Virus record (IMG/VR): IMGVR_UViG_3300003702_000965
Location: 19,951-83,950 of that record
Length of the DNA stretch: 64,000 nucleotides
DNA from: a virus
Reading direction: 5' to 3' (one strand)
This document shows, piece after piece, positions 8,717-34,596 of this stretch. The position numbers were made by a program, and so were the translations under genes. Each line of letters opens with the position of its first letter. The stretch's first letter is position 1. The notes beneath the pieces were generated by a model. It was not told the DNA's origin. It saw nothing but the letters and a program-made list of their open reading frames with translations, and made no database searches.

Positions 8717-8722
8717 TAATCA

Positions 8723-12500: not shown

Positions 12501-12519
12501 AGCTAATTTAAATCCATAA
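9508..12519 (+). CDS. Large acidic hypothetical protein, probably virion-associated
   Basis: 1003 aa, D/N/S/T-rich, coupled to phoH stop; no family motif recognised. Confidence 0.4.
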   Translation: MPTPLAELVAPIKKGSLGGAQVADVGKICDSELKASDDDPSEGDNNGTETDHSKFVYHRDRVVDKYSVTRDTINEGTAATLSYNNSDQKSTSPNLYVETNAKAEADVVLLPTQAVSNSNEDEGDYAYLEPSVNYDSDGKEKCSRTTNNLFKPSELVELHSKESTTLDSPFKATRAKGEYQSETILNANNYKTGPSPNGMTVELNDGFCFIASIDNAAEYGTLLLNFKQSHPAKRAITSYMINNHIQDPDKLLTNPRTFKGVNDAGTTEGGYFSEHSIDFRSMLTSQLSPVSLYSAPMWVYNKSIESRVVSYPHGHASLQGNDDLQAYIGYIQSYSKNNGDKSADLNVFYSSSFISEDFGNLSVAAPFTDGKAIRTVVPYGTNVASACALGMGNLCTNANARSDRTNEHRTTAYGSIDYTLTLPPNYIEEEVTIELNESGLHAGFPNSAGSTTGDPDQVLWNANSNNGVTSQFKGNRKDPVNGRPTVSNVIRADLGWRPYEIIVFRGTLTYNKNTGVESHSEDYVEYFRFRTFDTVFKKETYNRQIGSASESAESTATSAEGGDVHEYSFPVTGYHRESDGGFVINFSENFKTSDFSPQNKLKVAVIQDIVVDPDAVKATFSSAVINAILPDEGRVFSPIFEDTLQVLNKDEGLFFDTSRDSAKYSRPFGYGNSYSTVEDPNSPTGLTYLTHFFCLSYEVDLEDAYYGNNACFNSNSFIRAGTGGPSAFEGTVATEWEHPNYDCTNFGDLAIDFPGLPWVINSYENPVQIQDPITSVKYPTDPTQRSCSIPIFPGQDITQMDPDGNNVTQTAAEWGYAFSGGLAVRRDTSPDVPFEYINDTVFSDPVCVAGYVNGYRETSWFARDLVAAYSETRFNQIKDADYGIFSEEHNGVNFIMPVPWTLGIQLIKPENINGIDLDSVRCSLDRDSFHSKALGPEEGESDTLNGVGYHCGECEDLAEPPSAEFDDDPPTKHGKVKKGFPLTDTLNDHRSYVRIHDGANLNP

Positions 12520-12520
12520 A

Positions 12521-14350
12521 ATGCCAGACACATATAAAACTACATATAGGGTCGAAAAAGAGAAACAATTTACGCTAGAAGGGAAACAGGTGAATGTAGC
12601 TGGTTTTGTTTCTAGTTGCGATTATTGTGAACCGTGTCATGACGAGGCGGAGGGCATAGACAGCTTATCCGTATGGGAAAATGGAGAAACTACAATAAGA
12701 TTTTTCCCACACGTAACCGATCAAAATGGTCCCGACTATACAGCCAGATCAACTGAACTTATTAATTCGGTAGGCACAATCCCACGGACTTCGTTTGCCT
12801 ACGGAATTGGTGTAGATGGACTGGCCGATCCCTCAATAGCTAATCCTGACTGGGTAGATGGCGGGGGTTTCTATTTCAAAAAAAGAACTCCTGCGTTTCT
12901 AGTCTCATCCGATCCTCCCACGAACGATCCAAACATTGATGAAGATGGAAACCATCTAAGAGATGTGCATGGTGATCTAGTGGAACCTAGGAAACCTATT
13001 TGCGAGTATTTAATCGAAGTGAACTGGAGCGCGGTTATGGATAACCAAATATTAAATTGGTTCAGGGGTGGGCCAGATAGGATGGCTTTTTTGGTGGTGA
13101 ACAGACACACAGATCGCATGGCTGAAAACAATGTTTTTCCGTCCCAACCTTTCGTATATAGCGAAGGTATCCATGCGAATCCAGACCTCAAAGGGGGTAT
13201 TATACAGCAATATTTTCATTTCTTGAATCATACCGGAAGTGTCGGCGCATCGGGAATAACTGGAGATGGAATAGAGCGGGCATATCCTTCTGGAAAATTC
13301 TTTTTTAAGGCAAAGTCTTATGATTCTTTTTGGATTGAATTTTATGAGTACGGCAGGAGGGGATTCAGCAATGAAGAGCTAATGGCAAGAGAAAGCAATG
13401 AAAATGACGAAAACATGTTTAGAGTCGAGTATGCCGAAATGAACGACGCTACTTCATGGGGCTTAGAGGCTCCCGAAACGTATGGCCCCGGACTAGCTAC
13501 GGCAGTTGTTAATTGGTCGAAGAGCCTTAATGATTATGATTCGTTTTATGACTTTTCACTTGGGTATACAACCTCGCAAAGAATAGATCTAGGGGTAATT
13601 CATAAAATGAAAGATGATGTTAAAAACTATAATGACACTTTACCGGAGCTAAGAAGAATGGGAGCTTTTGCGAGGTACAACAGAGGGGTATTTGAGGGTG
13701 GAAATGTTTTTTATGATGTTATAGATCCGGAAACAGGAGAGATTGTAGTTGATGAAGAAACAGGAGAAAATGTAGTTAATGAAATTTCCGACTCTGAACT
13801 GAAATATAATAGGTTAGGCGCTGATGGAACAGACAACCCTCTTTCCGGCGGAACGTACAATATGAAATACGAATTACCAGCGACGTTAGGTAGTCACTCC
13901 GCTTACGATTTAAATTTAGGACTTGCAGATCCTATTAATTACGACTGGAGGAGGGGCGACCCTGAAACCTTAAATACAAACGAATCGACCAATATTGACC
14001 ACAACAACATCAAAATGACATTTAAAAAACATTTGATCGTCAGCCCTTCTTTTGCATATGTACCGTCTGAAGATGCGAGCAAAAGCTTAACAAACAAAAC
14101 AGTAGCCTTCGCTCCTTATATGGAAATTAAATCCTTTGGTTTTTTGGGTCATGGTCGAGCAGGACTTAATCATCCTCTCGGCGACATCGACTCGGACCAT
14201 GATGTTAAAGTAGGAGGCGCAGCGTATCCGCATGGATCAACCGAAGGTAATAGATTTACTAAAAATATGGGAGACGGAAAACAGGCTCCCACAAATAAAG
14301 TGGCCAGACCGGGGCAATTATTGCATCACACTTTAGCAGTAGAGAAATAA
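12521..14350 (+). CDS. Large acidic hypothetical protein, probably virion-associated
   Basis: 609 aa; N-terminal CxxCxxC; last gene of the plus-strand block. Confidence 0.4.
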   Translation: MPDTYKTTYRVEKEKQFTLEGKQVNVAGFVSSCDYCEPCHDEAEGIDSLSVWENGETTIRFFPHVTDQNGPDYTARSTELINSVGTIPRTSFAYGIGVDGLADPSIANPDWVDGGGFYFKKRTPAFLVSSDPPTNDPNIDEDGNHLRDVHGDLVEPRKPICEYLIEVNWSAVMDNQILNWFRGGPDRMAFLVVNRHTDRMAENNVFPSQPFVYSEGIHANPDLKGGIIQQYFHFLNHTGSVGASGITGDGIERAYPSGKFFFKAKSYDSFWIEFYEYGRRGFSNEELMARESNENDENMFRVEYAEMNDATSWGLEAPETYGPGLATAVVNWSKSLNDYDSFYDFSLGYTTSQRIDLGVIHKMKDDVKNYNDTLPELRRMGAFARYNRGVFEGGNVFYDVIDPETGEIVVDEETGENVVNEISDSELKYNRLGADGTDNPLSGGTYNMKYELPATLGSHSAYDLNLGLADPINYDWRRGDPETLNTNESTNIDHNNIKMTFKKHLIVSPSFAYVPSEDASKSLTNKTVAFAPYMEIKSFGFLGHGRAGLNHPLGDIDSDHDVKVGGAAYPHGSTEGNRFTKNMGDGKQAPTNKVARPGQLLHHTLAVEK

Positions 14351-18919: not shown

Positions 18920-19280
18920 ATTTTTCTAAAATCAAATATATATTATAGATAAACAGGGTCAAGATTACGACTAACGGGAAATATAGCGGCATAATGAATA
19001 CGACAGCTACGCTCATCCAAAAGGTTAAGCAAATAGGGCATGATACTAATTTTGAAAAAAAGTCATCGTTCGTAATTGACAGAAACTCAGAGTAATTTAC
19101 ACTAACTTTAGCTTGATTAACAAAATTTTCGTATTCTTCCAAGTTAAAAAGCTCTTTGATTATCCTTATTTTATCGAGCTTTAATACTTTTATATATTCA
19201 TAAAAAACATTAGTTTTAAGCCAAATTATAAGGACTAGAGAATAAACAAATGGAAGCAAGATTATAGCCCCGTTATCCAT
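18909..19280 (-). CDS. Membrane protein with CxxC motif
   Basis: Hydrophobic segments and 'LVSCPICLTFW'; start at 19280 (MDNG...) preferred to 19304 because it gives a short overlap with the upstream gene. Confidence 0.6.
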   Translation of the reverse strand: MDNGAIILLPFVYSLVLIIWLKTNVFYEYIKVLKLDKIRIIKELFNLEEYENFVNQAKVSVNYSEFLSITNDDFFSKLVSCPICLTFWMSVAVVFIMPLYFPLVVILTLFIYNIYLILEKYAR

Positions 19281-20682
19281 CTTTTGTATTGCAAAAAGAC
19301 ACAATCACATATCTTGTGCCGCTGGTGGTAGGTCTAGCTCCATGCTTATGAGTTATATTACCGGGATGCATAACCACTTCTCCAATGTCGTTTTGGACGA
19401 GTATTTTTTGCCTTCTAAAATATGTTCCGCTCCCTTCAAAATCCCTTCCACGTTGATTTAGGTTAGCTAGAAAGGTCAGCTTCGAATAGTCGTGGTGAAG
19501 CGATAGGTGCGACTGCTTGGATGGTATATATTTTATAATGAAGTTTTCCCCCGTTAAGGATGCCCAGTTTGAGCCTTCCAGCGCGTATAGAAATTCAGCG
19601 GCAGGGTAGCAGTGCTTCTTCAAAACTTGTTCATATACATTATTGATTCCCACTGTATCTAATAACATGTCAGTTGTAGGATAAAATTCATGCCTTTTCT
19701 CTGTCCACTCCCCCTCGGTTTCGCATAAATCAATCATTTCTTTACAGAAAATTTCATTGAAAAGGGGCCATTTGAAAATGTTTGAGTATCCGGGTTCTCC
19801 CAATTCATCTGCCATCAATTCCCATTCGTGGGAGCGAGCCTCTATTCTCAGGTATTTTTCTTCCCAAGCTTTTGGGTCTTTGTCGTAGTCTCTTATCGAC
19901 AAGTCTCCTTCCGTTGGCTGACCTTGTGGGCTGTCGAATCTAGATGCTATATTTCCTTTTAAGGGTTCTATTTTTTTTGTCTTGATTGGCTTAAATTCTT
20001 CGTAGCCGAAGTCTTCTTTCCCTGACTCCCCCTTTTTGGTCACCTCCTTGCTTATGGTGACGCCGGGTACTGGGGAAATGAGAGGCTGTGAAAATTTAGA
20101 CTTCTCTCCATCTGCTCTTATGAAAGCTACCAATGTTAGTCTTCCGTCATACAAATCATTACCAAAGTATTCGTCAGACTTGTGAAAGAAGAGAGGGTTG
20201 TAGATCATACATCTGTTATATACGTTTTCTACTGTTTCTCTTACGTCATACCATTTTGGATCTCCATCTGATTCTTTATATTCTTTAGACTTTTTATTTG
20301 CGCTTTCTTTTAAGTCGTAAATTATAGTGCCTGAATTGGGCTTTGGGTCAGGAGTAAGGTAAATTAAAGCAACATGAGTGAAGTCTTGATCCATCTTGTC
20401 GTCATGAACCCAGCTATCCCCGTCTTTTGAAGTACACAATTGAAACATTACCTCAAAATAAGACTCTTTACCTTGCGGCCAGCCCATAACTTCGTATATT
20501 CTCCCAGTAAACTCATAATAAAGTTTTTCGCTGAGAGTATGATAAAAAGGAGTTCTAGTTCCGGGCCAATTGCCCCCAGATGGATGAGTTTCTTTTGGAA
20601 AAAACTTCTGAGAAAGGGCGAACTTCCTTACTTTATCAGGATCTGGGAAAAAATTTTCGAATACAAGCTCTTTGTCACTCAT
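19273..20682 (-). CDS. Tandem 2OG-Fe(II) dioxygenase; C-terminal domain PLOD/lysyl-hydroxylase-like
   Basis: Two HxD...H...R sets: 'WVHDD...FHKS...RLT' and 'WPLFNEIFC...PTTD...IKY..SKQSHLSLHHD...FEGSGT...MHPGNITHKHGARPTTSGTRYVIVSF'. Confidence 0.8.
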   Translation of the reverse strand: MSDKELVFENFFPDPDKVRKFALSQKFFPKETHPSGGNWPGTRTPFYHTLSEKLYYEFTGRIYEVMGWPQGKESYFEVMFQLCTSKDGDSWVHDDKMDQDFTHVALIYLTPDPKPNSGTIIYDLKESANKKSKEYKESDGDPKWYDVRETVENVYNRCMIYNPLFFHKSDEYFGNDLYDGRLTLVAFIRADGEKSKFSQPLISPVPGVTISKEVTKKGESGKEDFGYEEFKPIKTKKIEPLKGNIASRFDSPQGQPTEGDLSIRDYDKDPKAWEEKYLRIEARSHEWELMADELGEPGYSNIFKWPLFNEIFCKEMIDLCETEGEWTEKRHEFYPTTDMLLDTVGINNVYEQVLKKHCYPAAEFLYALEGSNWASLTGENFIIKYIPSKQSHLSLHHDYSKLTFLANLNQRGRDFEGSGTYFRRQKILVQNDIGEVVMHPGNITHKHGARPTTSGTRYVIVSFCNTKDG

Positions 20683-20688
20683 GATCTG

Positions 20689-21123
20689 TTATATTTTTAC
20701 TAATTCGACACCATAAAAATCTAATATTTCTTTAGCTTTCAGGTCTTGATCATATTCTTCAGAGTATATTACTTGTGGTATTTTGTATGCAGCTATTAGC
20801 GTGGCACAGTGAGAACATGGTAATAGAGTCACGGCTAGTATACTAGCTTGACCTTTATTGAATAGAGACATACAGTTGGCTTCTGCGTGTATCATATACT
20901 TCCTTCTTTCGTCTCTGTCGAGCCAGAATTCCGCGTCCACCTTTTTTTTAGGAGCTAACCCGTTGTAACCGACTCCTAGGATCATCCTGTCTCGGTCTAA
21001 GGCGCAAGCTCCCACTTTTCTATGAGGATCTTCGCTTCTTTTAGAAGCTGTTTTAGCTATTTCAAGGGCGTATTCTTGCCAGCTAAGCCTTTCTTTAATA
21101 TCAGTTCCTAGAATATATTCCAC
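20689..21123 (-). CDS. dCMP deaminase
   Basis: 'RSEDP..KVGA', 'GYNG', 'HAE', 'PCSHC'; start moved to GTG 21123 because the listed TTG at 21165 lies in a -35 box. Confidence 0.88.
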   Translation of the reverse strand: MEYILGTDIKERLSWQEYALEIAKTASKRSEDPHRKVGACALDRDRMILGVGYNGLAPKKKVDAEFWLDRDERRKYMIHAEANCMSLFNKGQASILAVTLLPCSHCATLIAAYKIPQVIYSEEYDQDLKAKEILDFYGVELVKI

Positions 21124-21136
21124 AACAAAGGAGCTT

Positions 21137-21165
21137 ATTTTATGAATTACTTTGGCAGTGGTCAA
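21137..21165 (-). promoter_or_regulatory. Sigma70-like promoter for the dCMP deaminase operon
   Basis: TTGACC-N17-TAAAAT with AAAGTAA at spacer positions 7-13; back-to-back with the promoter at 21181. Confidence 0.7.
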
Positions 21166-21180
21166 GGAAAATAAAAAGAG

Positions 21181-21209
21181 TTGACAAACAAAAAGGTGTC
21201 GAATATTAT
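21181..21209 (+). promoter_or_regulatory. Near-consensus sigma70-like promoter driving the structured non-coding region
   Basis: TTGACA-N17-TATTAT. Confidence 0.75.
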
Positions 21210-21215
21210 TTGTTA

Positions 21216-21642
21216 ATTGCTTTTCGCGGCAAGTAGCCTAGCGAGGATATCTCGCTTCAACACGTAAGAGACAACAGGCCCGTAAAAAGACGCCAATCAA
21301 GAAGGCTAATAACCTTCACGCTATTTCGGGAAAAGGCGGCGTTTGAGATTGGAAAAGCTGTTAACTTGGGCGACCCCTCTGGGGGAAGGAAGAAGTTAAA
21401 GTGTCAAAAAACAAGTCCTGCCGCTTAATGTTAAGCAATGTACATAGCTGAATTTGGTTGTGAGCTAGGCTGAAGCATGGCCGACGCGTAGGACTGAAAC
21501 GGGTAAATTCAGACCATTTTTTAGGTAATGTCATGATTTTCACTTGACGGTTACCAAGTTGACTGCTATTCCTTAGGCTCCTCCTCGGAGGAAGGAAGAA
21601 GTTAAAACTTCTTCTTATGCGTTCTGCGAACGCTAATTTTTT
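21216..21642 (+). ncRNA. Candidate large structured RNA or leader (family not recognised)
   Basis: No plus-strand ORF in the track; several local hairpins, 6-8 bp long-range complementarities, a 17-bp direct repeat, final hairpin plus T-run. Confidence 0.5.
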
Positions 21643-21648
21643 AAACAT

Positions 21649-22257
21649 ATGGATAGCCAAGTAACCGTTTCTGATTTAGAGTTAGTCGATGAAATAAGAG
21701 AGTTTAAGTGCTCCGACAGTCTTGTAGCGTTGACTGGTAGGCATGTCGGGATCCTAAATAAAGTCTTCAAAAGATATTCGGGGGCCTTAGTTTCTATTGG
21801 GTATTCCTATGATTCCTTTAAAGGTGATTTTAATTTAGTTACTTTTAAAGCTTGCACATCATTTAGAATAGAAGGCGGGTCTAAGTTTTCGACTTGGCTA
21901 TGTAATCACGCAAGATACCACTGTTTGAATCAAATAAATAAAAAAAATAAAATTAAAGATTTAAGTATCGAAGATGAGCAATATTTAGAATTCTTAGCGC
22001 AAAGCCAAAGCCTGCCCAACTCCTTCAAGCTCGAAATAGATTACGTCTTTAAAATCCTGTCAGACATGAAAGACAAAAGGATTTCCAAAGTTTTTAATAT
22101 GAGATATTTCGGAGAAATTGGAAAAAATGGATGCCCTTGGTCTAAAATAGGTGAAGAACTTGGGATAAGCACCCAGACGGCGATAAATTTACATGAAAAA
22201 GGAGCTAAATTAATCAGAAACAAGCTTAAAAGCCCAAACCCGACTGACAAAATCTAG
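21649..22257 (+). CDS. Phage-encoded sigma70-family RNA polymerase sigma factor
   Basis: Region 2-like 'SKFSTWLCNHAR' and region 4 HTH 'MRYF...WSKIGEELGISTQTAINLHEKG'. Confidence 0.8.
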   Translation: MDSQVTVSDLELVDEIREFKCSDSLVALTGRHVGILNKVFKRYSGALVSIGYSYDSFKGDFNLVTFKACTSFRIEGGSKFSTWLCNHARYHCLNQINKKNKIKDLSIEDEQYLEFLAQSQSLPNSFKLEIDYVFKILSDMKDKRISKVFNMRYFGEIGKNGCPWSKIGEELGISTQTAINLHEKGAKLIRNKLKSPNPTDKI

Positions 22258-22259: not shown

Positions 22260-22288
22260 TTGACAAAGGGGAAAGGGTAACTTAATAT
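22260..22288 (+). promoter_or_regulatory. Sigma70-like promoter
   Basis: TTGACA-N17-TAATAT, spacer contains GAAAGGGT; ATG 10 nt downstream. Confidence 0.75.
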
Positions 22289-22298: not shown

Positions 22299-22604
22299 AT
22301 GGCTGATAACAAGTCGAAAAGCACAGAAGTAGGGGCTCTCTGGAAAAGGGTAGCTAAGAACTCAGGTAAGACTTATCTGGCTGGTCACATCGCAATTGAA
22401 GATCTCGGAGCAATGGCTCTAGAGAAGAAAGTTAAGATAGTGGTCTTCTCCAACAATAAAGAAGGGCAATCTGAAAATGCTCCAGATTTTAGGATGTATT
22501 TATCCAAAGTCATAGAGCAGAGGAAAGAAGAGTCTTCGACGGCGACTCCTCAGCCTGAAGCCGAGGTGGTTTCCGCTTCGCCTGAAGATGGAGATCTCAT
22601 TTAA
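22299..22604 (+). CDS. DUF736-like small protein with acidic tail (possible ssDNA-binding protein)
   Basis: 'GALWKR...GKTYLAG...VVF.N.K...APDFR' and acidic C-terminus. Confidence 0.6.
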   Translation: MADNKSKSTEVGALWKRVAKNSGKTYLAGHIAIEDLGAMALEKKVKIVVFSNNKEGQSENAPDFRMYLSKVIEQRKEESSTATPQPEAEVVSASPEDGDLI

Positions 22605-23682
22605 CTTACCTATTAACTCAGTCTCTTTCGGGCAAGTTTCTTTAGCTTTACTCAGGGAGGCTTTCAACAGAAAGCTTCAGCCTTCTCTTGTTCCGATAGG
22701 GGAGGTTGATCTTTCTTCACAGTCAGGCGTAACTGACGAGTTTAAATCTTGGTTAGACTCCTGCCTCAAAAAGGGAAGGACCGAACACAGCAGGGAAGTC
22801 CCATGCTTGAAGCTTTGGCACCTTAACGGAGGCATGGAATCTATTAGCAACAAACCTAATTTGCTAACGTTTTACGAACTAGACGAACCGACTAAAACCG
22901 AGATTAACGTAGCAAGAAACAATAAAGTAATATTTACTTCATCTTATACGAAAAATATCTTCGAAAGAGAAGACATAGATTGCGGTTCAATCCCTCTAGG
23001 ATTTGATTTGTATAATTTTCATAAAATAAAACCTACTGACAAACGTTTTCCCGACGACAGGATAACCTTCAACTTAGTTGGTAAATTCGAGAGGAGGAAG
23101 CACCACGAAAAAGTAGTTAATGCTTGGCTAAAGAAATTCGGAAACAACAGGAAATATCTCCTTCAGTGTGCTATATATAATCCGTTCTTTTCGGAATCCG
23201 ATAACGAGAAAGTCTGGGATTCTCTTGGCAGAAAGTCGGGTTTTTTCAATTTAAGTTTTTTAGGATTCATGAAGAGGAACTCTATCTATAATGATTTTCT
23301 GAATTCTGGAGATGTTGTAATCGGAATGTCAGGAGGAGAAGGCTGGGGCCTCCCCGAATTTCAGTCCGTTTGTTTGGGGAAACATGCTGTTATATTAAAC
23401 GCTTCAGCATATAAAGATTGGGCCAACGAAGATTGTTGCGTTATGGTTGAGCCTTCTGGAAAAATCCCCGCTTATGATGGAATATTTTTTAAAGAGGGTG
23501 GGGACTATAACCAAGGGAGCATTTTTGATTTCTCTGAAGATGATTTTATTTCCGGCTGCGAAGAAGCGATTAAAAGAGTAGAGGCTTCCAAAGATAAAAA
23601 TAACGAAGAGGGAGAACACCTTAAGGATAAATTTTCCATCTCTAATTCATTCGACAAAATATTAGATTGTATATATGCCTGA
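22588..23682 (+). CDS. Glycosyltransferase, GT-B/GT4-like
   Basis: 'VGKFERRK', 'SGGEGWGLPEFQS'. Confidence 0.85.
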   Translation: MEISFNLPINSVSFGQVSLALLREAFNRKLQPSLVPIGEVDLSSQSGVTDEFKSWLDSCLKKGRTEHSREVPCLKLWHLNGGMESISNKPNLLTFYELDEPTKTEINVARNNKVIFTSSYTKNIFEREDIDCGSIPLGFDLYNFHKIKPTDKRFPDDRITFNLVGKFERRKHHEKVVNAWLKKFGNNRKYLLQCAIYNPFFSESDNEKVWDSLGRKSGFFNLSFLGFMKRNSIYNDFLNSGDVVIGMSGGEGWGLPEFQSVCLGKHAVILNASAYKDWANEDCCVMVEPSGKIPAYDGIFFKEGGDYNQGSIFDFSEDDFISGCEEAIKRVEASKDKNNEEGEHLKDKFSISNSFDKILDCIYA

Positions 23683-24019
23683 ATATACATATGAGAATCC
23701 GGAGACAGGAGAAACTGTAAACGTCTTCCAAAAAATAGACGACGATCATGAATACTCAAAAGACGGACTACAATACAACAGAGTCTTCACGGTCCCTAAC
23801 GCTTCCATAGACTCGGACCTGTCCTCCCTTTCCGAAGAAGCCTTCGTTAGAGCTACGGCCAAGAAGAAAGGTACCTTGGGTGATTTATGGGATGCTTCAA
23901 AAGAAGCCAGTCTAAAGAGGGAGAAAACTTACGGGAAAGATCCCGTTAAGGAGAAATATTTCAAAAAATATAGCGAAAAAAGAAAAGGAGCTAAGCATAA
24001 AGATGACCCGTCCAGATGA
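23675..24019 (+). CDS. FmdB-like small protein lacking the zinc-ribbon cysteines
   Basis: 'MPEYTYENPETGE...RVFTVP' follows the MPxYxY pattern without CxxC. Confidence 0.5.
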   Translation: MPEYTYENPETGETVNVFQKIDDDHEYSKDGLQYNRVFTVPNASIDSDLSSLSEEAFVRATAKKKGTLGDLWDASKEASLKREKTYGKDPVKEKYFKKYSEKRKGAKHKDDPSR

Positions 24020-25022
24020 AATAACTTTCGTCGTAATATCTAACGGCAACAATCACGAAAAGCTAAAGAGGCTTTTAACAAGCATAGAGCATAACGGCGA
24101 ACACCACCTAAAGTCTTATGAAATAAACCTATGTGGCGAAGCTGGAGACTTCGAGCTTCCTGCTATTGTAAATTATTTTCATTTGCCAGAGGACGCCTCT
24201 AACGCTCGACTTGGGGACATGAGAAACGTTGGGTGCGAAAACGCGACTAAAGAAACAATTTGCATTTTAGATGACGATTTTATTTTGGCTCCTGATTGGG
24301 TAGAAAATATTCCTCATAATTATTTCGATATTATGACTTCTCAGGTTAGAGTTCCTGATGGAGGCAGATATTGGGATCACGCATGCTACATGAGTCCCAC
24401 TAAAGGTCACGTAATTCTTATGCCAGACGAAAAGGATGACTGTTTGTATATGTCTGGAGGATGCGCTTGGATGATGAAGAGGAAAGTGTGGGAAAAAGTT
24501 AAGTGGGACTCTTCTGGGATTTACAACATGAGCAGTCTGGAGGAGTACAAAGAAGGAAAGCATAATGAAGACACTCACTTTTCTTTAAGGTGTAGGGAAA
24601 ATAAGTTTTTATTAATCCATAACCACGACTCCATTTCTTTCCATGACGACGATTCCTATACTAATGTCGGCAGGATCTGCAACAGAAGAAGAGACGACAG
24701 AAGCTATTCTTGGGTTTTGGACTTGAGCTTATCTTTTTCTCCGTCAGTGTTATGCGACTTTGCTGTTTCCCTCTTTTCGAACGGCTTTCTTCCTGAATCG
24801 GCTGATATACTTAGGTATGGACTGATTAACTTTCCATCAAATTATGATCTACAAAAGACATTTGAATCCACAATAGTTAAACACTCTGGAGTTTTAGAAG
24901 ACTCTAGATACTCTCCCAATGGTGACCCTTTATATTTAGAGTTTAAGTCTTTTTATGACGACGACTCAGATGACGACTCCGAACTCGAGGGACTAACCCA
25001 AGAGCAAATGAATATCCTCTGA
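24003..25022 (+). CDS. Glycosyltransferase family 2
   Basis: 'RNVG...ICILDDD', 'NEDTHFSLR'. Confidence 0.8.
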   Translation: MTRPDEITFVVISNGNNHEKLKRLLTSIEHNGEHHLKSYEINLCGEAGDFELPAIVNYFHLPEDASNARLGDMRNVGCENATKETICILDDDFILAPDWVENIPHNYFDIMTSQVRVPDGGRYWDHACYMSPTKGHVILMPDEKDDCLYMSGGCAWMMKRKVWEKVKWDSSGIYNMSSLEEYKEGKHNEDTHFSLRCRENKFLLIHNHDSISFHDDDSYTNVGRICNRRRDDRSYSWVLDLSLSFSPSVLCDFAVSLFSNGFLPESADILRYGLINFPSNYDLQKTFESTIVKHSGVLEDSRYSPNGDPLYLEFKSFYDDDSDDDSELEGLTQEQMNIL

Positions 25023-25023
25023 T

Positions 25024-25767
25024 ATGAGAATAGGCCCAATTCAAAGTTTATGGATAGGAGACGAGCTTTCTGATTTGGAGGTTTTATGCATAAATTCCTT
25101 CTTGAAAAATGGATATGATTTTCATCTTTACACGTACGGAACTATAAAAAACGCGCCTAAAGATTGCGTCATATTAGACGGCAACGAGTTTCTAGAAGAA
25201 TCGGAGGTTTTCTCCTACAAAGTAGGAGTAGGGAAGGGCAGCTTTTCAGCCTTCTCTAACCTCTTTAGATACAAAATGCTTTATGACATTGGCGGGATCT
25301 GGTGCGACACTGACGTAATAAATTTAAATCCCATCCCGAACATGGAATATCTTTTCGCGTCAGAGAAAGATGGCGACGAAATAGTCTGCGCTTCTTGTTT
25401 CATAAAAGCTCCTAAGGGTTCTGCTTTCGCCAAGTATTGTTACGATAAGGCCTCTTCTGTAGACAGAGAGAAGCTTGAATGGGGCCAGATAGGTCCTAAG
25501 TTAGTAGGGGAAGCGGTTAAGACTTACGGTCTTAGCGACTTTATTGTTCCCTTCAAAAAATTCAACCACGTTCCTTGGTATAGCGCTGAACTCTTTTTTT
25601 ACGATGATCCAGAAAATATGGGCGAGATGCTTTATGAGAGCATAGCCAGCGAAGCGTATTGCATTCATATGTGGAACGAAGTTTGGAGAAGATTAGGTTT
25701 GGATAAGAGCGCGGAGTTTCCGAAAGGCTGTTTCTACGAGGTGTTAAAGTCCAAAATAAAAGTATGA
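25024..25767 (+). CDS. DXD glycosyltransferase (GT32/alpha-1,4-GT-like)
   Basis: 'IQSLWIG', 'FSNLFRY..LY..GGIWCDTD', 'WGQIGP', 'IHMWNE'. Confidence 0.85.
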   Translation: MRIGPIQSLWIGDELSDLEVLCINSFLKNGYDFHLYTYGTIKNAPKDCVILDGNEFLEESEVFSYKVGVGKGSFSAFSNLFRYKMLYDIGGIWCDTDVINLNPIPNMEYLFASEKDGDEIVCASCFIKAPKGSAFAKYCYDKASSVDREKLEWGQIGPKLVGEAVKTYGLSDFIVPFKKFNHVPWYSAELFFYDDPENMGEMLYESIASEAYCIHMWNEVWRRLGLDKSAEFPKGCFYEVLKSKIKV

Positions 25768-26519
25768 AGAAAATATATTTAAATGATTTCTTTCAGGAAA
25801 GTGGTTATGATTGGGAGAACGACGCACCCATGATGAAAGAAATTTGCAAGCTCAGCAAAACTAGACACATGGAAAACCCTCCGAAAGAGTTTCAATTTAC
25901 TTACGGAATGGAGCAGCCATTTTTTATCAAGGCTTTTTTGGAAAACGTATATTGTGAGAAGTTTTTTGAGATTGGAACGGGAAGGGGAACTTGTTCCATG
26001 GCGGCTTCTTTATGTAAAGACATGAGAAAGGTAGATAGTTTTGACATTCTTGTTCCGGACGAGAAGAGAGATAACGTAATAAATTTCAGAAAGGAGGAAG
26101 CGTCTAATATGGATATTCTGGAGAGATTTAGGACTAAGGCTGCTAAGATTACAAACTTCGTTGCTCAAGCGTACCCTAGTGAAATTAAATTTAATCATGT
26201 TTCAGGGTACGCGAAGTTTATTGACGACCCAGATAATAAAGACTATAGCGTCTGTTTCATAGACGGAGACCACGATAATGCTGAAACAATTTTAAAAGAC
26301 TATCTAATATGCAACAAAGTGATGGAGAAATCTAAAGAGGCTTATATTATTTGGGACGATTACTATCCAGATAAGTTCGCCGTTAAGGAAGTTGTAGATA
26401 AAATCACGGAAGTAGACGGAAGGGAGTGCACTCTAGTTCCTTTCAGAGGCCATTTATTTGATAGCGACGATAAAGCCAGAGAGGAAGACTCTGGCGAAAT
26501 AATAATGAAAATGACATGA
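25764..26519 (+). CDS. Class I SAM-dependent methyltransferase
   Basis: 'FEIGTGRG', 'FIDGDH', 'IIWDDY'. Confidence 0.85.
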   Translation: MKKIYLNDFFQESGYDWENDAPMMKEICKLSKTRHMENPPKEFQFTYGMEQPFFIKAFLENVYCEKFFEIGTGRGTCSMAASLCKDMRKVDSFDILVPDEKRDNVINFRKEEASNMDILERFRTKAAKITNFVAQAYPSEIKFNHVSGYAKFIDDPDNKDYSVCFIDGDHDNAETILKDYLICNKVMEKSKEAYIIWDDYYPDKFAVKEVVDKITEVDGRECTLVPFRGHLFDSDDKAREEDSGEIIMKMT

Positions 26520-27511
26520 AGATAGCGTATTTATGCGATAGAGACACCTATCTACATAAAATGTCTAGGGTTAGGTTTCACGGCATTCAAGCCATATCGG
26601 AAACGAATGAAGTTAAATGGCTAGGGAGAGGATGGAACAATGACGCTCAATTAGGATTTGGGTGGAACGGCTCCCTAACCGTAGACGAAAACTTTAAAAG
26701 ATTAGGTTTTTATCCTGATTTAATAATTGGATATAAACCTTTAGATATTCTAGGCTTTTGTGACTCTAAAATCAAGAAGTGCATTAGATACAATGAAATG
26801 TACGACGTAGAATGGACGATAAGAGAAATCGTCGAGAGTAACGCTGACATAGTCATTTGCCACCACCAAAATGATTATGAAGAATACGTTTCTAATTATC
26901 AAGTTTCGGAAGACCACAAAGTTGGCCTTAGTAGCGTAACTTTCGTTAACATCCCCCATTGTGCTGAAAAGACAGTTTTCAAAGACTATGGTCTCGCCAA
27001 AGAAACAGACTTACTCTTAGTTGGCGCTACCTTCGCTCAGAGTACCCTAGGTCAGCATTATCCCTTGAGAGACAGAATGGCAAGTGACATCTTACCAAAA
27101 CTTTCGCTTAAATATAATTGCAAGATATATGAGCACCCCGGATACAGCATGGGAGACGCACACACCAACATATACGCCCAAAACTTTGCGAGAGCCATAA
27201 ACTCAGCCAAAATAGCTATAACCTGTTCCGGCTTGCCCAGAAGTAGATTTGGTAAATATGTAGAAATTCCCATGTGCAGAACAGCCATTGCTGCCGACAT
27301 GCCCGGCGAAATGCAAGACTTTTTTAAGGAATTTTTAATTAACATAGACATGAGTCACTCCGACGCTCAAATAATGGCCTTGTTGGAGAATAACCTAAAA
27401 GAGCCCCACAGGATACAACAGAAGGCAGACAGAGGATATGAGATGAGCAAGAAATTCGACCAAGAATATTACGCCGAATTATTTAACGAAAAAGTCTTGA
27501 GCTTGTTATGA
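26516..27511 (+). CDS. Glycosyltransferase, CgeB-like GT-B
   Basis: 'YPLR', 'INSAKIAI', 'KYVEIPMC'. Confidence 0.7.
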   Translation: MKIAYLCDRDTYLHKMSRVRFHGIQAISETNEVKWLGRGWNNDAQLGFGWNGSLTVDENFKRLGFYPDLIIGYKPLDILGFCDSKIKKCIRYNEMYDVEWTIREIVESNADIVICHHQNDYEEYVSNYQVSEDHKVGLSSVTFVNIPHCAEKTVFKDYGLAKETDLLLVGATFAQSTLGQHYPLRDRMASDILPKLSLKYNCKIYEHPGYSMGDAHTNIYAQNFARAINSAKIAITCSGLPRSRFGKYVEIPMCRTAIAADMPGEMQDFFKEFLINIDMSHSDAQIMALLENNLKEPHRIQQKADRGYEMSKKFDQEYYAELFNEKVLSLL

Positions 27512-28434
27512 AAGTCCTACCCATTCACGGAAACGAGAACTGGCTCTGCGATAGATACGCGCAGGAGTGGAAGGATCTCAACACTTTCCACGCTTGTCCC
27601 TACAACAACTCTAATGATGCGGATGTTCTTTGGTTGCTTGCTCCTTGGGAATGGAAACAGATACCCAAAGCGTATTTAGAGACAAAGAAAGTCGTTTGCA
27701 CTATCCACCACATGGTTCCAGACAAAACCGACGAGTCTACTTGGAAAGAATTCGAAGAAAGAGATAAGTATATTGACGCTTACCATACCCCCTGCTTTCC
27801 CTCTTACGCTCAGTTCGGCCCCAGAATAGGCCACAAGCCGTTCTTAATTAATCCTTTTTGGTGCAATAATGAAATCTTTAAACCAATAGACGACAAAATT
27901 GGATTGAGGGAGAAATACGGAATAAAGCAAAAAGCCCATTTAATGGGCTCGTTCCAAAGAGACACAGAAGGCTCTGACCTCTCTTCCCCAAAACTGGAAA
28001 AAGGTCCGGATGTTTTTTGTGACATTATTGAGAAAGAGAAGGAAAAGAACCCCGACGTTGAGGTTCTATTAGCTGGATGGAGAAGGCAGTATGTTATAAA
28101 TAGATTAAACAAGGCCGGGATAAAGTATTATTATTTTGAACTACCTTCAATTAAAACGATTAATGAGCTGTATAACTGTTTGGACCTTTATGTTGTAGCT
28201 GCCAGATACGAGGGAGGGCCTCAGTCTATTCCGGAATGTATTATGACCAATACCCCCATTGTATCTACTCCCGTTGGCTTATCCAGCAAACTGCTTCACC
28301 CCAAAAGTATATTTTCCTCTTCTTCTAATTTTAATAGAGCTTCTCCTGACTTGTCTTGGGGAGAAAGAGCTATTGCGCCTTATATAATTCCAGAAGGCTT
28401 CAAACCATTCAATGATTTTTTCGATAGCTTATGA
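27508..28434 (+). CDS. Glycosyltransferase, GT4-like
   Basis: 'EKGPD', 'LYNCLDLYVVAARYEGGPQSIPEC...PIVST.VG'. Confidence 0.85.
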   Translation: MKVLPIHGNENWLCDRYAQEWKDLNTFHACPYNNSNDADVLWLLAPWEWKQIPKAYLETKKVVCTIHHMVPDKTDESTWKEFEERDKYIDAYHTPCFPSYAQFGPRIGHKPFLINPFWCNNEIFKPIDDKIGLREKYGIKQKAHLMGSFQRDTEGSDLSSPKLEKGPDVFCDIIEKEKEKNPDVEVLLAGWRRQYVINRLNKAGIKYYYFELPSIKTINELYNCLDLYVVAARYEGGPQSIPECIMTNTPIVSTPVGLSSKLLHPKSIFSSSSNFNRASPDLSWGERAIAPYIIPEGFKPFNDFFDSL

Positions 28435-29369
28435 ATTCACTTAATTTTTCCACTTTGATTAGGTGGCTGATAACTATTCAAGACTCGGGGTATCCTTGGA
28501 CTTTGCAAAAAAACCCAAAGGGGGTAGACAGGTGCCTTCTTTCGTCAGCTAGCCTTTTTTGTAAGCTCTCTAAAATTTACGAAAATTATTTTCAACCCGA
28601 CAAAGAAGAATTGAAAAAAATTATTTTATCCTTCACTAGAAAAAAGGATGGCATGCTGGAAGACATATCCGGCAAACAGAATATCATATCAGAGACGAGG
28701 CAGGCTTTTTCGGGCTTGAAAAATATAGGAGAAAAACTTCCCCCTTTTGACCCTTCTGAATATTTTCAAGAGCCTCTTTATTTTCTACAAGACGACGAGT
28801 GGGACAACCCTTGGGGCGCTGGAGCGCATCTTTCTCATTATTTGTTTTTCATGAAACAAACAGGACAAACCTCGAAAATTAGCGAGGCCTTAGATAGGAT
28901 TAAAATATATGAACACGAAGACGGCTGGTATAGAAACAAGCCCGACGATCACACTTTAGTTAATGGGATCATGAAAGTCATGACGGCTTACGACGCTGCC
29001 AAAGTAGAAATTCCCGCGAGTTTAAAGGAAACTATATTAGACTACGTTTTTAAATATGCTTGCGAAGGTGGCGGTTGTGGAATTTACGACTTCGTCTATG
29101 TTGTGGATAAATGTATGGACTTGGGGCTTCACACCGACAAATGTGAGAAATCTTTAAAGAACTGTTTTGAATTCATATTGAAGCACCAAAAGAAAGATGG
29201 AGGGTTTTCTTATAACCTTAATCAGTGTCAAACAAGCTTTTACGGTAGGCGCATAGCCGATCCGTTTGCGTGTGGGGACGTTCATGGAACGACTTTACTT
29301 AGCATGGCTTTAGTGAGAATTGATAGTGGTTTAAATTTAGATTATAATCTGTCTTTCGCGGTTACATGA
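28431..29369 (+). CDS. Hypothetical protein with prenyltransferase/squalene-cyclase-like repeat
   Basis: 'HQKKDGGFSY...DVHGT' and 'HEDGWY'. Confidence 0.45.
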   Translation: MNSLNFSTLIRWLITIQDSGYPWTLQKNPKGVDRCLLSSASLFCKLSKIYENYFQPDKEELKKIILSFTRKKDGMLEDISGKQNIISETRQAFSGLKNIGEKLPPFDPSEYFQEPLYFLQDDEWDNPWGAGAHLSHYLFFMKQTGQTSKISEALDRIKIYEHEDGWYRNKPDDHTLVNGIMKVMTAYDAAKVEIPASLKETILDYVFKYACEGGGCGIYDFVYVVDKCMDLGLHTDKCEKSLKNCFEFILKHQKKDGGFSYNLNQCQTSFYGRRIADPFACGDVHGTTLLSMALVRIDSGLNLDYNLSFAVT

Positions 29370-30142
29370 ATAAGATAGTTGGAATTTGTTTATTCAAAGA
29401 CGAAGAGATATACGCTGAAACCGTTATACATAATATAATTGACTTTTGCGACAAGATTATTATCATAGATAACAATTCCACCGACAAGACCTTCGATATA
29501 GTAAGAAAACGCTTCTCGTCTAGTCCCAAGGTGACTATGTTAAAAATGGAAGACCATTTAGCTTCGGGAAGAATGACGTATTCTTTTTTCGGATCAAAAA
29601 CTTTTCTTTTTGCGGTAGATGGTGACGAAATATACGATAGAGACGGGTTAAAAGCTATGAGACAAAGAATTAAAAATGGATTTTTCGACAAAGTTTGGAA
29701 AATCAGCGGAACCTCTTTCCACGTTAACGATGTCTCCTCTACTTGCGTTTCAGGTTTTTCCTGCCCTCCCAATAAGCATGTGACGAAACTTTACAATTTT
29801 AACGTTATAAATTCTTGGGATCAAGGCGAAAGACTACATGGGGTTGGCTTAAATCCACAGCCATATTATAAAGAGAGTCTTATTGATGTAAAATTCGCAA
29901 ATGAAAGAGGCTTGGAAGAGTCTAATCAAGTAGATTGGAGATTCTCTGAATTTAGGTGCCTGCATATGTGTTTTGTTCGAAGATCCCAACGAGACTCCGA
30001 GGATTCAAATTTTCGGTGTGAAGCTGGCTTCTATAGACCAGCCCCAATAGGGCACGATTTTAATTATAAAGCTATAAAATACGGGCTAGGGCCTACTCTA
30101 AAAATAAAAAGATCCACCTTGAAGCCTTTCCATTTGCCGTGA
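29366..30142 (+). CDS. Glycosyltransferase family 2
   Basis: 'KDEE', 'IIIDNNSTDKT', 'VDGDE'. Confidence 0.8.
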   Translation: MNKIVGICLFKDEEIYAETVIHNIIDFCDKIIIIDNNSTDKTFDIVRKRFSSSPKVTMLKMEDHLASGRMTYSFFGSKTFLFAVDGDEIYDRDGLKAMRQRIKNGFFDKVWKISGTSFHVNDVSSTCVSGFSCPPNKHVTKLYNFNVINSWDQGERLHGVGLNPQPYYKESLIDVKFANERGLEESNQVDWRFSEFRCLHMCFVRRSQRDSEDSNFRCEAGFYRPAPIGHDFNYKAIKYGLGPTLKIKRSTLKPFHLP

Positions 30143-31095
30143 TAGACGAACTCCCCAAAGATAAAACTTTCGTTTTCGGCATGTGCCCTAATAGACACTC
30201 TGCCGGAGGAGGGGGCACGAAGTTTGTTAATTATTTTAGCGAAAAGCTTGTTGGGAGAGCTTCGTTTTTTATTAACTCCAATGAGCCTGACCCTGATTAC
30301 ATTCTGCTTTTCGATCCTAGACATTTAGATTTTTCAGGCAATTGGCTTAGTCTCGATGTTCTAAAAGAGATCAAAGCTAGAGGCATAAAGAGTAAAATCA
30401 TCCACAGAATAAACGACATAGGATACCCTAAGAATAGACCACCAGAGTATGTTGACGCTGTAATAGAAATGGCTAATTTATCCGATAAGGTAATTTATGT
30501 TTCTGATTTTGTTAGAGATTATTATGGAGACAGGATAAAGACGGAGTACGAAGTCATACCAAACGGCGTAGACGAAAGGATCTTCACTTTTAAGGAATAT
30601 TCTTTTGATAAACTTAGGTTCGTTACACACCACTGGTCTTCTGATCCCATGAAAGGCAAGGTTCTATACGATTTCATAGACGAAATGTTGTCGGATTTAG
30701 AGGGGGAGGCTGAGTTCACCTATATTGGGAACCCTCCCAAGGGGTCAAATTTCAGAAGAACCAACGTGATAAAACCCCTTTACGGAGAAGAGCTGGCTAA
30801 TGAAATTAAAAAGCATAACATTTATGTTTCTGGTTCCCAGCATGAACCCTGCGGCATGCATAAACTAGAAGGAGTTGCCTGCGGACTTCCCATAATGTAC
30901 AATGTAGACAGCGGAGATTCGTACCTTACGTCAGATTATGGAGTCGGCATAGAATATAACGGTTTTCCCAAATTTGGTATTGCTTTAGCTGAAATGATGG
31001 GAAACCATAAGCGTTTTTATGATAAAATAGTTAATAATTTTGATTTATATTTAGAAAATAGATGCGTTAAGTATTTAGAATTTATAACGAAATGA
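30139..31095 (+). CDS. Glycosyltransferase, GT4-like
   Basis: 'GGG..F', 'VIPNGVD', 'SQHEPCGMHKLEGVACGLP'. Confidence 0.85.
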   Translation: MIDELPKDKTFVFGMCPNRHSAGGGGTKFVNYFSEKLVGRASFFINSNEPDPDYILLFDPRHLDFSGNWLSLDVLKEIKARGIKSKIIHRINDIGYPKNRPPEYVDAVIEMANLSDKVIYVSDFVRDYYGDRIKTEYEVIPNGVDERIFTFKEYSFDKLRFVTHHWSSDPMKGKVLYDFIDEMLSDLEGEAEFTYIGNPPKGSNFRRTNVIKPLYGEELANEIKKHNIYVSGSQHEPCGMHKLEGVACGLPIMYNVDSGDSYLTSDYGVGIEYNGFPKFGIALAEMMGNHKRFYDKIVNNFDLYLENRCVKYLEFITK

Positions 31096-32003: not shown

Positions 32004-32004
32004 A

Positions 32005-33129: not shown

Positions 33130-33154
33130 CTCCGCTGAAAGCGTTTGGTACTTT
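33126..33154 (+). promoter_or_regulatory. Sigma70-like promoter starting the recombination/replication block
   Basis: TTGACT-N17-TACTTT, spacer contains GAAAGCGT; GTG 6 nt downstream. Confidence 0.7.
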
Positions 33155-33160
33155 CCTCGG

Positions 33161-34595: not shown

Positions 34596-34596
34596 A

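What the first reader, a model, noticed from the sequence alone, without database searches (positions are those of the whole stretch)
21181..21648. ~420-nt promoter-driven structured non-coding element directly upstream of the phage sigma factor
This is the largest gap in an otherwise packed window. It begins at TTGACA-N17-TATTAT and ends in a GCGTT/AACGC hairpin plus T-run just before the sigma ATG. Local stems: AGCGAG/CTCGCT (21240-56), GAAGG/CCTTC (21301-17), TTAACTT/AAGTTAA enclosing CCCC/GGGG (21361-99), GCTTAA/TTAAGC (21423-36), GGTAA..GTCA/TGAC..TTACC (21524-55). Long-range complementarities: GCTTTTC 21219/GAAAAGC 21352, AGCCTAGC 21235/GCTAGGCT 21464, AGTCCT 21414/AGGACT 21490, CTGAATTT 21448/AAATTCAG 21505. 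Several cross each other, implying pseudoknots or alternative folds. I see no tRNA, tmRNA, RNase P or group I hallmarks. Inference: an unclassified large RNA, or an attenuator timing sigma-factor (late) expression.
Basis: partly seen in the sequence, partly recalled or inferred. Interest (0 to 1): 0.75.

Follow-up and report, generated by a model that had tools for sequence, protein, structure and literature searches.

The report
New large knotted phage RNA family
The gene-free 480 bases in front of this uncultured deep-sea phage's sigma-factor gene encode a real, roughly 420-base, intricately folded RNA of a family found in no catalogue but kept by over a hundred ocean and lake phage contigs, almost always just upstream of that sigma gene; what it does is not yet known.

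Summary
A near-consensus promoter (21181-21209) points into an ORF-free stretch that ends in a hairpin plus T-run at 21619-21642, 7 nt before the sigma ATG.

- **Family:** the stretch belongs to an RNA family I found in 104 metagenome and viral loci (64 unique full copies). It was absent from 185,579 prokaryote genomes, GenBank phages and Rfam 15.
- **Fold:** 90% of cells pair against 74% in shuffles, and 32 of 42 pairs change on both sides. The 5' end (21217-22) pairs with 21433-38. 21226-31 pairs with 21419-24. 21414-18 pairs with 21491-95, which crosses the hairpin 21448-56/21504-12 and makes pseudoknots. G-U pairs put the RNA on the + strand.
about half are supported. Three are not.
- **Conservation:** the RNA core is far better conserved than the neighbouring sigma protein (32-39% identity between the window's lineage and the marine and lake lineages).
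- **Linkage:** 51 of 52 RNA loci have the ECF-like sigma gene downstream.
- **Twin tract:** a 13-17-nt tract occurs twice in every lineage. The two copies are identical within a lineage and differ between lineages.

Function is untested. I favour an early RNA tied to the sigma module, probably a cis-acting leader; a stand-alone ornate RNA is nearly as likely.

This scan met the same family before on other DNA and reached the same verdict.

The parts
21181..21209 (+). Sigma-70-type promoter TTGACA-N17-TATTAT; implied start near 21216-21217
   Evidence: 11 of 12 matches. A promoter-like site at the same distance in 31 of 64 relatives. Sequence conservation and the 5'-end helix begin at 21217.
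21217..21222 (+). P0 5' strand (UUGCUU); pairs with 21433-21438 and fixes the RNA 5' end
   Evidence: Own-versus-cross duplex test: -8.13 vs -5.22 kcal/mol, p<0.0005. In one search, 7 of 8 pairs change on both sides, e.g. GUUCUUUA/UAAAGAAC against GUUCUUUG/CAAAGAAC.
21226..21231 (+). PA 5' strand (GCGGCA); pairs with 21419-21424 (UGCCGC) and closes the 5' domain
   Evidence: 88% paired, 5 of 6 pairs change on both sides. Own-versus-cross test p<0.0005.
21240..21256 (+). Hairpin H1 (AGCGAG-GAUAU-CUCGCU)
   Evidence: A hairpin forms in 62 of 62 members, with 37 distinct sequences.
21260..21291 (+). Most conserved single-stranded block (ACACGUAAGAGACAACAGGCCCGUAAAAAGAC)
   Evidence: Part of it was used as the search pattern, so its invariance is partly due to how members were collected. 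In the divergent subgroup L169 it reads AAGCCCGUCAAAAG.
21293..21352 (+). Three-way element: helix H2 (21293-98/21347-52) enclosing hairpin H3 (21301-17, loop CUAAUAA) and hairpin H4 (21318-21/21339-42, conserved loop AUUUCGGGAAAAGGCG)
   Evidence: All 6 H2 pairs change on both sides. H4 is 93% paired. H3 forms in 58 of 62 members.
21374..21400 (+). Hairpin H6 (CCCC-UCU-GGGG) followed by twin tract copy 1 (21384-21400, GGAAGGAAGAAGUUAAA)
21414..21424 (+). PC 5' strand (AGUCC, pairs with 21491-95) directly followed by PA 3' strand (UGCCGC)
   Evidence: PC is 97.7% paired, with G-C to A-U exchange in 16 sequences.
21433..21438 (+). P0 3' strand (AAGCAA)
21448..21512 (+). Domain II: helix H7 (21448-56/21504-12). 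Its 47-nt loop holds a local hairpin (GGCU 21468-71 / GGCC 21479-82) and the PC 3' strand (GGACU 21491-95), which makes the pseudoknot.
   Evidence: H7 is 97% paired and 8 of 9 pairs change on both sides. The local hairpin is 97.6% paired; the freshwater lineage lengthens it.
21524..21577 (+). 3' module, first part: lineage-specific hairpin (21524-55), then the conserved AAGUUGACUGCUAUUCCUUAGG
21580..21614 (+). 3' module, second part: hairpin CCUC-CUCG-GAGG, twin tract copy 2 (21590-21606), and hairpin 21595-21603/21606-21614 in which copy 2 is the 5' strand
   Evidence: Own-versus-cross test of copy 2 against the downstream 40 nt: p=0.021.
21619..21642 (+). Terminator-like hairpin GCGUUC-UGC-GAACGC plus U-run, 7 nt before the sigma start codon
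   Evidence: The hairpin covaries in the window's lineage (ACGCUCUUCGAGCGU, ACGCUUUUCAAGCGU), but the U-run is found only in the window.
21649..22257 (+). ECF-like sigma-70 family factor (202 aa); the gene linked to the RNA
   Evidence: TIGR02937 E=4e-9, below its cut-off; FSTWL..N and C-terminal HTH motifs. Linkage 51 of 52.
20689..21165 (-). dCMP deaminase, the divergent left neighbour (not part of the element; a different gene in other lineages)

Best explanation
**Shown.** Window 21217 to about 21640 (+ strand) is a member of an uncatalogued family of roughly 400-430-nt phage RNAs. Transcription starts from a host-type (sigma-70) promoter.
- A 5' domain (21217-21438) is closed by two stacked helices, P0 and PA. 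It contains hairpins H1, H3, H4 and H6 and helix H2.
- A second domain (H7, 21448-21512) sends its loop back into the first through helix PC, which makes pseudoknots.
- A less conserved 3' module (21524-21640) repeats an internal hairpin-plus-purine tract and ends in hairpins next to the following gene.

**Inferred.** The RNA is made early. It is the first part of the transcription unit that carries the phage's ECF-like sigma factor gene (with a dNMP kinase gene in most relatives). It is functionally tied to that module.

**Most likely mode, not shown.** It acts in cis as a large sensing leader. The knotted core binds some factor. The 3' module holds a second copy of the core's 13-17-nt tract, which forms the 5' strand of the last hairpins. 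This module would translate the state of the core into more or less read-through or translation of the sigma operon.
For: - **Family and conservation:** (104 loci; 64 unique copies; the intergenic region is better conserved than the flanking genes).
- **Structure:** (90.0% paired vs 74.3% shuffled; covariation 0.473 vs 0.202, 0 of 500 shuffles; slid controls at most 0.145; 32 of 42 pairs change on both sides).
- **Strand:** many G-U pairs that would be C-A on the other strand (e.g. columns 335/404, 348/365, 351/362).
- **Promoter and 5' end:**
- **Link to sigma:** 51 of 52 loci. The link is kept although the kinase gene moved to 55879-56517 in the window. The window has no promoter-like site between the core and the sigma ATG, and has a terminator-like hairpin at 21619-42.
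- **Twin tract:** identical within every lineage and different between lineages. Copy 2 pairs with the strand just downstream (p=0.021).
- **Same slot in relatives:** some sigma-bearing relatives that lack this RNA carry another promoter-driven ORF-free stretch at the same place.
Against: - No transcript data; no RNA run is listed as a holder.
- In L035/L188 a tRNA gene and a new TTGACA-N17 promoter lie between the RNA and the kinase-sigma genes.
- The lake lineage has a promoter-like TTTACA-N17-TACTAT just before the kinase ATG.
- L074 has the RNA but no sigma gene within 3.5 kb.
- The U-run after the last hairpin is found only in the window.
- I found no lineage-specific pairing between the twin tract and the segments that a classic terminator/antiterminator switch would need (p=0.65-0.99).
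- A 300-nt core better conserved than the proteins around it is more typical of a trans-acting RNA or RNP than of a leader.
Confidence: 0.45

Rival explanations
1. It is a stand-alone, trans-acting 'ornate' RNA, alone or as an RNP, possibly self-assembling as GOLLD, ROOL and OLE do. It is expressed early from its own promoter. It lies next to the sigma operon only because both are early genes. The twin tracts would be two binding sites for one partner, either a dimeric protein or a second RNA molecule.
For: - Its size, its pseudoknots and its long invariant single-stranded blocks. The RNA core is far better conserved than the sigma protein, which is 32-39% identical between the window's lineage and the marine and lake lineages.
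- A tRNA gene plus a separate promoter lie downstream in L035.
- The lake lineage has a promoter-like site before the kinase gene.
- The window has a terminator-like end.
- L074 lacks sigma.
- The twin tracts are identical in every lineage, with no convincing internal partner.
- Conserved blocks contain palindromes (GGCC, AGCU, CUAG) that could make contacts between molecules (sequence).
Against: - The 51 of 52 same-strand adjacency to sigma is stricter than co-expression alone would require. It survives relocation of the kinase gene.
- Unlike GOLLD and ROOL, there is no general tRNA neighbourhood.
- No antisense target of 11 nt or more exists in the 84-kb record.
- Only 23 of 80 sigma-bearing relatives have the RNA, so it is dispensable for the lineage as a whole.
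Confidence: 0.35
2. It is a processive antitermination element, of the kind seen in HK022 put or the EAR RNA. It would sit at the head of the long rightward gene array (21649 to about 55023, all on the + strand), bind the elongating RNA polymerase in cis and carry it through terminators.
For: Its position directly after an early promoter at the start of about 33 kb of tightly packed co-directional genes. Two similar hairpin modules, as put has two stem-loops. A terminator-like hairpin immediately downstream that must be read through for sigma to be expressed.
Against: It is four to six times larger than put or EAR and matches no antitermination RNA in Rfam. In most relatives the gene upstream is on the same strand, so the RNA is not at the head of the array there. 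No polymerase-binding data exist.
Confidence: 0.1
3. It is not an RNA at all. It would be a DNA-level element, such as a replication origin or a set of protein-binding sites, in the divergent intergenic region.
For: The region lies between divergent genes in the window. Folding energy is equally low on both strands. It contains direct and inverted repeats.
Against: Compensatory changes keep Watson-Crick and G-U pairs on the + strand only. The long-range and crossing helices covary. In most relatives the region is not divergent. Conservation starts at the position the promoter predicts as the transcript start.
Confidence: 0.03

Closest known systems
GOLLD and ROOL (also OLE, raiA): large 'ornate' RNAs of bacteria, phages and prophages with unknown function (PMC5737381, PMC12286853)
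   Same: Several hundred nucleotides long, with multi-stem junctions and pseudoknots. Carried by phages, promoter-driven, with no known function. Found by comparative genomics only.
   Different: No sequence or structure match (Rfam 15 scans). About 420 nt, against 580-800. No general association with tRNA genes. Absent from bacterial genomes and prophages. Strictly linked to a sigma-factor gene. Oligomerisation not tested.
Large cis-regulatory leaders with an expression platform (T-box, riboswitches with terminator/antiterminator)
   Same: A sensing domain followed by a less conserved 3' module next to the regulated gene. Terminator-like hairpin. A repeated tract, as arises when two strands compete for one partner.
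   Different: No T-box or riboswitch signature and no Rfam match. The competing partner strand could not be shown. The host and phage do not use Shine-Dalgarno sites, so sequestering such a site is not an option. One relative has a tRNA gene and a promoter in between.
HK022 put and EAR processive antitermination RNAs
   Same: Cis-acting folded RNA just downstream of an early promoter and ahead of a long operon, with paired hairpin modules.
   Different: Far larger and knotted, with no similarity. Binding to RNA polymerase not tested.
tmRNA
   Same: On the surface: GUAAAAAG after a GC-rich pseudoknot-like block, then a hairpin whose loop reads UAAUAA, as at the end of the tmRNA tag frame.
   Different: No tRNA-like domain (ARAGORN). 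No Rfam tmRNA match. The distance to the UAA is 18 nt in the window and 19 nt, with an in-frame UAG, in the marine lineage. Variation there is base-pair covariation, not codon-like.
6S RNA
   Same: A non-coding RNA that could serve a switch of sigma factors; here it is encoded next to an alternative sigma gene.
   Different: 6S is a rod-like hairpin with a central bubble. This RNA is globular and knotted. No match to 6S families in Rfam.

Membership tests
Any Rfam 15 family (4227 models, including GOLLD, ROOL, OLE, raiA, HEARO, RNase P, tmRNA, 6S, group I/II introns, T-box, riboswitches) | Covariance-model score at or near the family's gathering threshold | tested here: not met
   Window at gathering threshold: only a tRNA at 61525. 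Region 21000-21800 at E up to 10: three chance-level hits, the best 21 bits against a cut-off of 62. Eight relatives: only tRNAs or chance hits.
tmRNA | tRNA-like domain (acceptor stem with G-U, T-arm, CCA end) | tested here: not met
   ARAGORN finds no tmRNA in the window or in 64 family members.
tmRNA | Conserved tag reading frame from a resume codon to an in-frame stop | tested here: not met
   The frame length differs (18 against 19 nt), the marine lineage has an in-frame UAG, and the changes are compensatory pairs of helix H2.
RNase P RNA | P4 helix with a bulged U, plus conserved regions CR-I to CR-V | tested here: not met
   Only a GAAAAGUCC resemblance. The partner strand GGACU pairs without a bulge. 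No match to an Rfam RNase P model even at E up to 10.
GOLLD/ROOL-type ornate RNAs (a descriptive class, not a homologous family) | Large, multi-junction, pseudoknotted, phage- or prophage-borne, often beside tRNA genes; forms homo-oligomers (cryo-EM, PMC12286853) | tested here: inconclusive
   Large, knotted and phage-borne: met. tRNA neighbourhood: not met, 1 lineage of about 15. Prophage or bacterial copies: none. Oligomerisation: not testable with these tools.
Intrinsic-terminator attenuator / riboswitch-type leader | Terminator (GC-rich stem plus U-run) conserved before the regulated gene | tested here: inconclusive
   Present in the window. The hairpin is conserved in the window's lineage, but the U-run is not. 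L043 and L071 instead have a U-run after the preceding hairpin. Marine and lake lineages have no canonical terminator.
Intrinsic-terminator attenuator / riboswitch-type leader | Mutually exclusive alternative pairings that covary | tested here: not met
   The twin tract against the X region, the mid region and the sequence after copy 1: own pairs are no better than cross pairs (p=0.65-0.99). Only copy 2 against its downstream strand gives p=0.021.
Intrinsic-terminator attenuator / riboswitch-type leader | Constant linkage to one downstream gene class | tested here: met
   Sigma gene downstream on the same strand in 51 of 52 loci.
Protein-coding gene | A conserved open reading frame | tested here: not met
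   The only ORF (minus strand, 99 aa) has no Pfam or PHROG match and is not kept in L026. Insertions and deletions in the family are not multiples of three.

The most novel reading that the evidence does not exclude
The RNA is a new kind of large RNA sensor or partner dedicated to a phage sigma factor. The knotted 300-nt core would bind a macromolecule: the sigma factor, host RNA polymerase or another early protein. The twin tracts would couple that binding to production or use of the sigma factor. Together these would form an RNA-based timer of the phage's early-to-middle transcription switch, with functional analogues of unrelated sequence occupying the same slot in sister phages.
Probability: 0.25. 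Interest if true: 0.85.

Novelty: categorically new. Interest (0 to 1): 0.72.

Why it matters
Large, highly conserved, pseudoknotted RNAs are rare in bacteria and phages. Those whose function has been worked out have usually revealed unusual biochemistry.

This family has several features that make it worth study:
- It is abundant in ocean and lake viromes.
- It is absent from cellular genomes and cultured phages.
- It is better conserved than the proteins around it.
- It is tied to a phage-encoded sigma factor, so it offers a way into how a large group of uncultured phages controls the takeover of host transcription.
- Its size (about 300 nt for the core) and well-supported helices make it a realistic target for chemical probing and cryo-EM.
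- The twin tracts, which always change together, give a ready-made mutational test.

'Categorically new' here means that no known RNA family shares its sequence or architecture. Since the function is unknown, it may still turn out to be a new form of a known regulatory principle, such as a leader or an antiterminator.

Tried and rejected
- **tmRNA-like reading** (GUAAAAAG followed by a UAAUAA loop): rejected. There is no tRNA-like domain and no conserved frame, and the variation is pair covariation.
- **RNase P-like P4** (GAAAAGUCC): rejected.
- **My own first pseudoknots:** PB (21235-39/21467-71) and PD (21277-80/21479-82) were withdrawn. They show only one-sided changes. 21468-71 pairs locally with 21479-82, with true compensation and a lengthening of that hairpin in lake phages.
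no lineage-specific signal (p=0.61).
- **Classic switch in which the conserved AAGUUGAC..GCUAU segment or the X segment pairs alternately with the twin tracts:** not supported.
- **Trans target of the twin tract:** no complementary site of 11 nt or more in the window, and none with up to 3 mismatches in the 84-kb record. The best duplex site (10750-10780) lies inside a gene and looks like chance.
- **CGGGAAAAR as a dispersed promoter-like motif:** 4 sites found against 2.2 expected, so it is not enriched.
- **Shine-Dalgarno mimicry by the GGAGG/GGAAGG tracts:** unlikely, because only 10 of 49 genes have an SD-like site, against a background of 21%.
- **Other collections:** GenBank phages give no DNA match for three family members and no sigma homologue. 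Prokaryote genomes give no match.
- **Literature:** the IMG/VR-wide catalogue of candidate structured RNAs (PMC10690425) may contain pieces of this family. No supplement is held as text, so this could not be checked. PMC5737381 describes nothing like it.

Full report
**What is there.** The window is part of an 84-kb IMG/VR virus record, estimated 55% complete. Its DNA is held by deep-sea, hydrothermal-vent and seawater metagenome runs. Positions 21166-21648 lie between a dCMP deaminase gene on the minus strand and an ECF-like sigma-70 family gene on the plus strand. TTGACA-N17-TATTAT is at 21181-21209. GCGTTC-TGC-GAACGC plus a T-run is at 21619-21642, 7 nt before the sigma ATG. The only ORF in the gap (minus strand, 99 aa) matches nothing and is not conserved. 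The folding energy is lower than that of shuffles (z = -2.7), but equally so on both strands, so energy alone decides nothing.

**A family, not a one-off.** A 17-nt tract that occurs twice in the gap led to L026, a relative in which the intergenic region is 86% identical and better conserved than the flanking genes. A pattern built from two invariant blocks then recovered 68 metagenome and 36 viral loci from marine and freshwater samples, giving 64 unique full-length copies. The same pattern found nothing in one genome each of 185,579 prokaryote species. blastn of three family members found nothing in 50,697 GenBank phage records. Rfam 15 gives no match at any threshold for the window or eight relatives, and ARAGORN finds no tmRNA. 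An nhmmer profile also picked up a more divergent subgroup (L167, L169-L174).

**The fold.** The test used the 62-sequence alignment A2 and a structure of eight helices.
- 90.0% of cells pair, against 74.3% in shuffles.
- The covariation score is 0.473 against 0.202 (0 of 500 shuffles reach it).
- Sliding the partners by one to three columns drops the score to at most 0.145.
- 32 of 42 pairs change on both sides.

The helices, in window coordinates, are:
- P0, 21217-22 with 21433-38. Its register is one column off in the window's lineage in A2, so it was also tested without an alignment (own -8.13 vs cross -5.22 kcal/mol, p<0.0005).
- PA, 21226-31 with 21419-24.
- H2, 21293-98 with 21347-52. 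It encloses H3 (21301-17, loop CUAAUAA) and H4 (21318-21 with 21339-42, conserved loop AUUUCGGGAAAAGGCG).
- PC, 21414-18 with 21491-95.
- H7, 21448-56 with 21504-12.
- A local hairpin, 21468-71 with 21479-82.

Hairpins H1, H3 and H6 form in 62, 58 and 59 of 62 members, with 37, 23 and 10 different sequences. PC crosses both PA and H7, so the loop of the second domain is knotted into the first. Frequent G-U pairs would be C-A mismatches on the other strand, which puts the RNA on the + strand. P0 pairs the first bases after the predicted start site. That fixes the 5' end near 21217 and agrees with the promoter. A promoter-like site recurs at the same distance in 31 of 64 relatives under strict criteria.

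- Supported: the three local stems at 21240-56, 21301-17 and 21374-84, and the long-range pairs AGTCCT/AGGACT and CTGAATTT/AAATTCAG.
- Not supported: GCTTTTC/GAAAAGC, AGCCTAGC/GCTAGGCT and the GCTTAA/TTAAGC hairpin. The bases of the last one belong to PA and P0.
- My own first guess of two further pseudoknots was also withdrawn.

**Context.** Of 52 RNA loci with at least 1.9 kb of downstream sequence, 51 have the sigma gene downstream on the same strand. It lies directly after the RNA in 13, after a dNMP-kinase-like gene in 37, and after a tRNA plus the kinase gene in one. In the window's lineage the kinase homologue sits 34 kb away, at 55879-56517, yet the RNA stays with sigma. The upstream neighbour varies. 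Sigma proteins are only 32-39% identical between the window's lineage and the marine and lake lineages, while long blocks of the RNA are invariant.

The converse does not hold. Only 23 of 80 sigma-bearing relatives carry this RNA. Some of the others carry a different promoter-driven, GC-richer, ORF-free stretch in the same slot, for example L145:1090-1430 and eight loci like it. That stretch too is unknown to Rfam.

The phage does not use Shine-Dalgarno sites: 10 of 49 genes have one, against a background of 21%.

**The twin tract.** In each of the 14 lineages where it was traced cleanly, one 13-17-nt tract occurs twice about 200 nt apart (L082, where the held sequence ends early, gave only an 11-nt match). 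One copy lies after hairpin H6 in the core, and the other lies in the 3' module. In the window these are 21384-21400 and 21590-21606. The copies are letter-identical within a lineage and differ between lineages. Own-versus-cross duplex tests show no lineage-specific partner upstream of either copy or after copy 1 (p=0.65-0.99). They give a modest signal for copy 2 pairing with the strand just downstream (p=0.021). In the window this is the hairpin 21595-21603/21606-21614. No antisense target exists in the 84-kb record. What keeps the copies identical remains unexplained.

**How it probably works.**
- *Shown:* a promoter-driven, conserved, knotted RNA on the + strand, genetically linked to the sigma gene.
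- *Inferred:* it is made early by host polymerase as the first part of the sigma transcription unit.
- *My preferred reading (0.45):* a large cis-acting sensing leader whose 3' module converts the state of the core into read-through or translation of the sigma operon. This rests on the 51 of 52 linkage, the lack of an intervening promoter, the terminator-like hairpin in the window, and the replaceable slot in sister phages.
- *Nearly as likely (0.35):* a stand-alone ornate RNA or RNP. In its favour are the size and conservation of the core, the tRNA and promoter that follow it in L035, promoter-like sites before the kinase gene in lake phages, and the failure to find switch pairings.
- *Less likely:* a put- or EAR-like antitermination element (0.1), or a purely DNA-level element (0.03).

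**Novelty.** No described family matches. The nearest comparison is descriptive only: GOLLD, ROOL, OLE and raiA (PMC5737381, PMC12286853). The IMG/VR-wide list of unnamed candidate structures (PMC10690425) could include fragments of it, but this could not be checked. Earlier agents of this scan met the same family on other genomes and also called it a new large phage RNA of unknown function. I re-derived this independently. What I add is the 5'-end helix, the corrected local hairpin, the sigma-linkage counts and the twin-tract tests.

Noticed in passing
L145:1090-1430 (and L151, L152, L159, L166, L173, L176, L185, L187): Sigma-bearing sister phages that lack this RNA carry an unrelated, GC-richer, ORF-free stretch of about 340 nt with its own TTGACA promoter at the same place upstream of the sigma module. 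It also holds a twice-repeated ..AGGGAAAAG.. motif and matches no Rfam family.
   Followed up: partly
window 55879-56517 (+): A homologue of the dNMP-kinase-like gene lies here, 34 kb away (34-36% identity). In most relatives this gene sits between the RNA and the sigma gene, so the RNA-sigma adjacency survived a rearrangement.
   Followed up: partly
window, all gene starts: Only 10 of 49 gene starts have a Shine-Dalgarno-like motif, equal to the background of 21%, while the promoters are of the TTGACA/TATAAT type. This is an unusual combination and bears on the unknown host.
   Followed up: partly
window 22588-35000 and 45212-50354: A long run of glycosyltransferase-like genes plus a Nol-type carbamoyltransferase lies beside dCMP deaminase, class II ribonucleotide reductase and a fused DUF6445/2OG-Fe(II) oxygenase (19273-20682). 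Together these could form a DNA or glycan modification pathway.
   Followed up: no
window 22260-22288: A second near-consensus promoter (TTGACA-N17-TAATAT) lies directly after the sigma stop codon, ahead of the DUF736-like gene at 22299. The sigma gene may therefore be a one-gene unit between the RNA and this promoter.
   Followed up: no
window 1-14350: Seven large ORFs (255-1003 aa), presumably virion genes. The six largest were scanned and have no PHROG match at E<=1e-5. No GenBank phage carries a homologue of the sigma factor; the lineage has no cultured relative.
   Followed up: partly
L036:2761-3252 and homologues upstream of the RNA in most lineages: A conserved protein of about 135-200 aa (MT[VI]LDA...) ends right at the RNA promoter in most lineages. 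Its only hint is a sub-threshold HEPN_AbiA_CTD match (E=0.04). It has no homologue in the window.
   Followed up: partly
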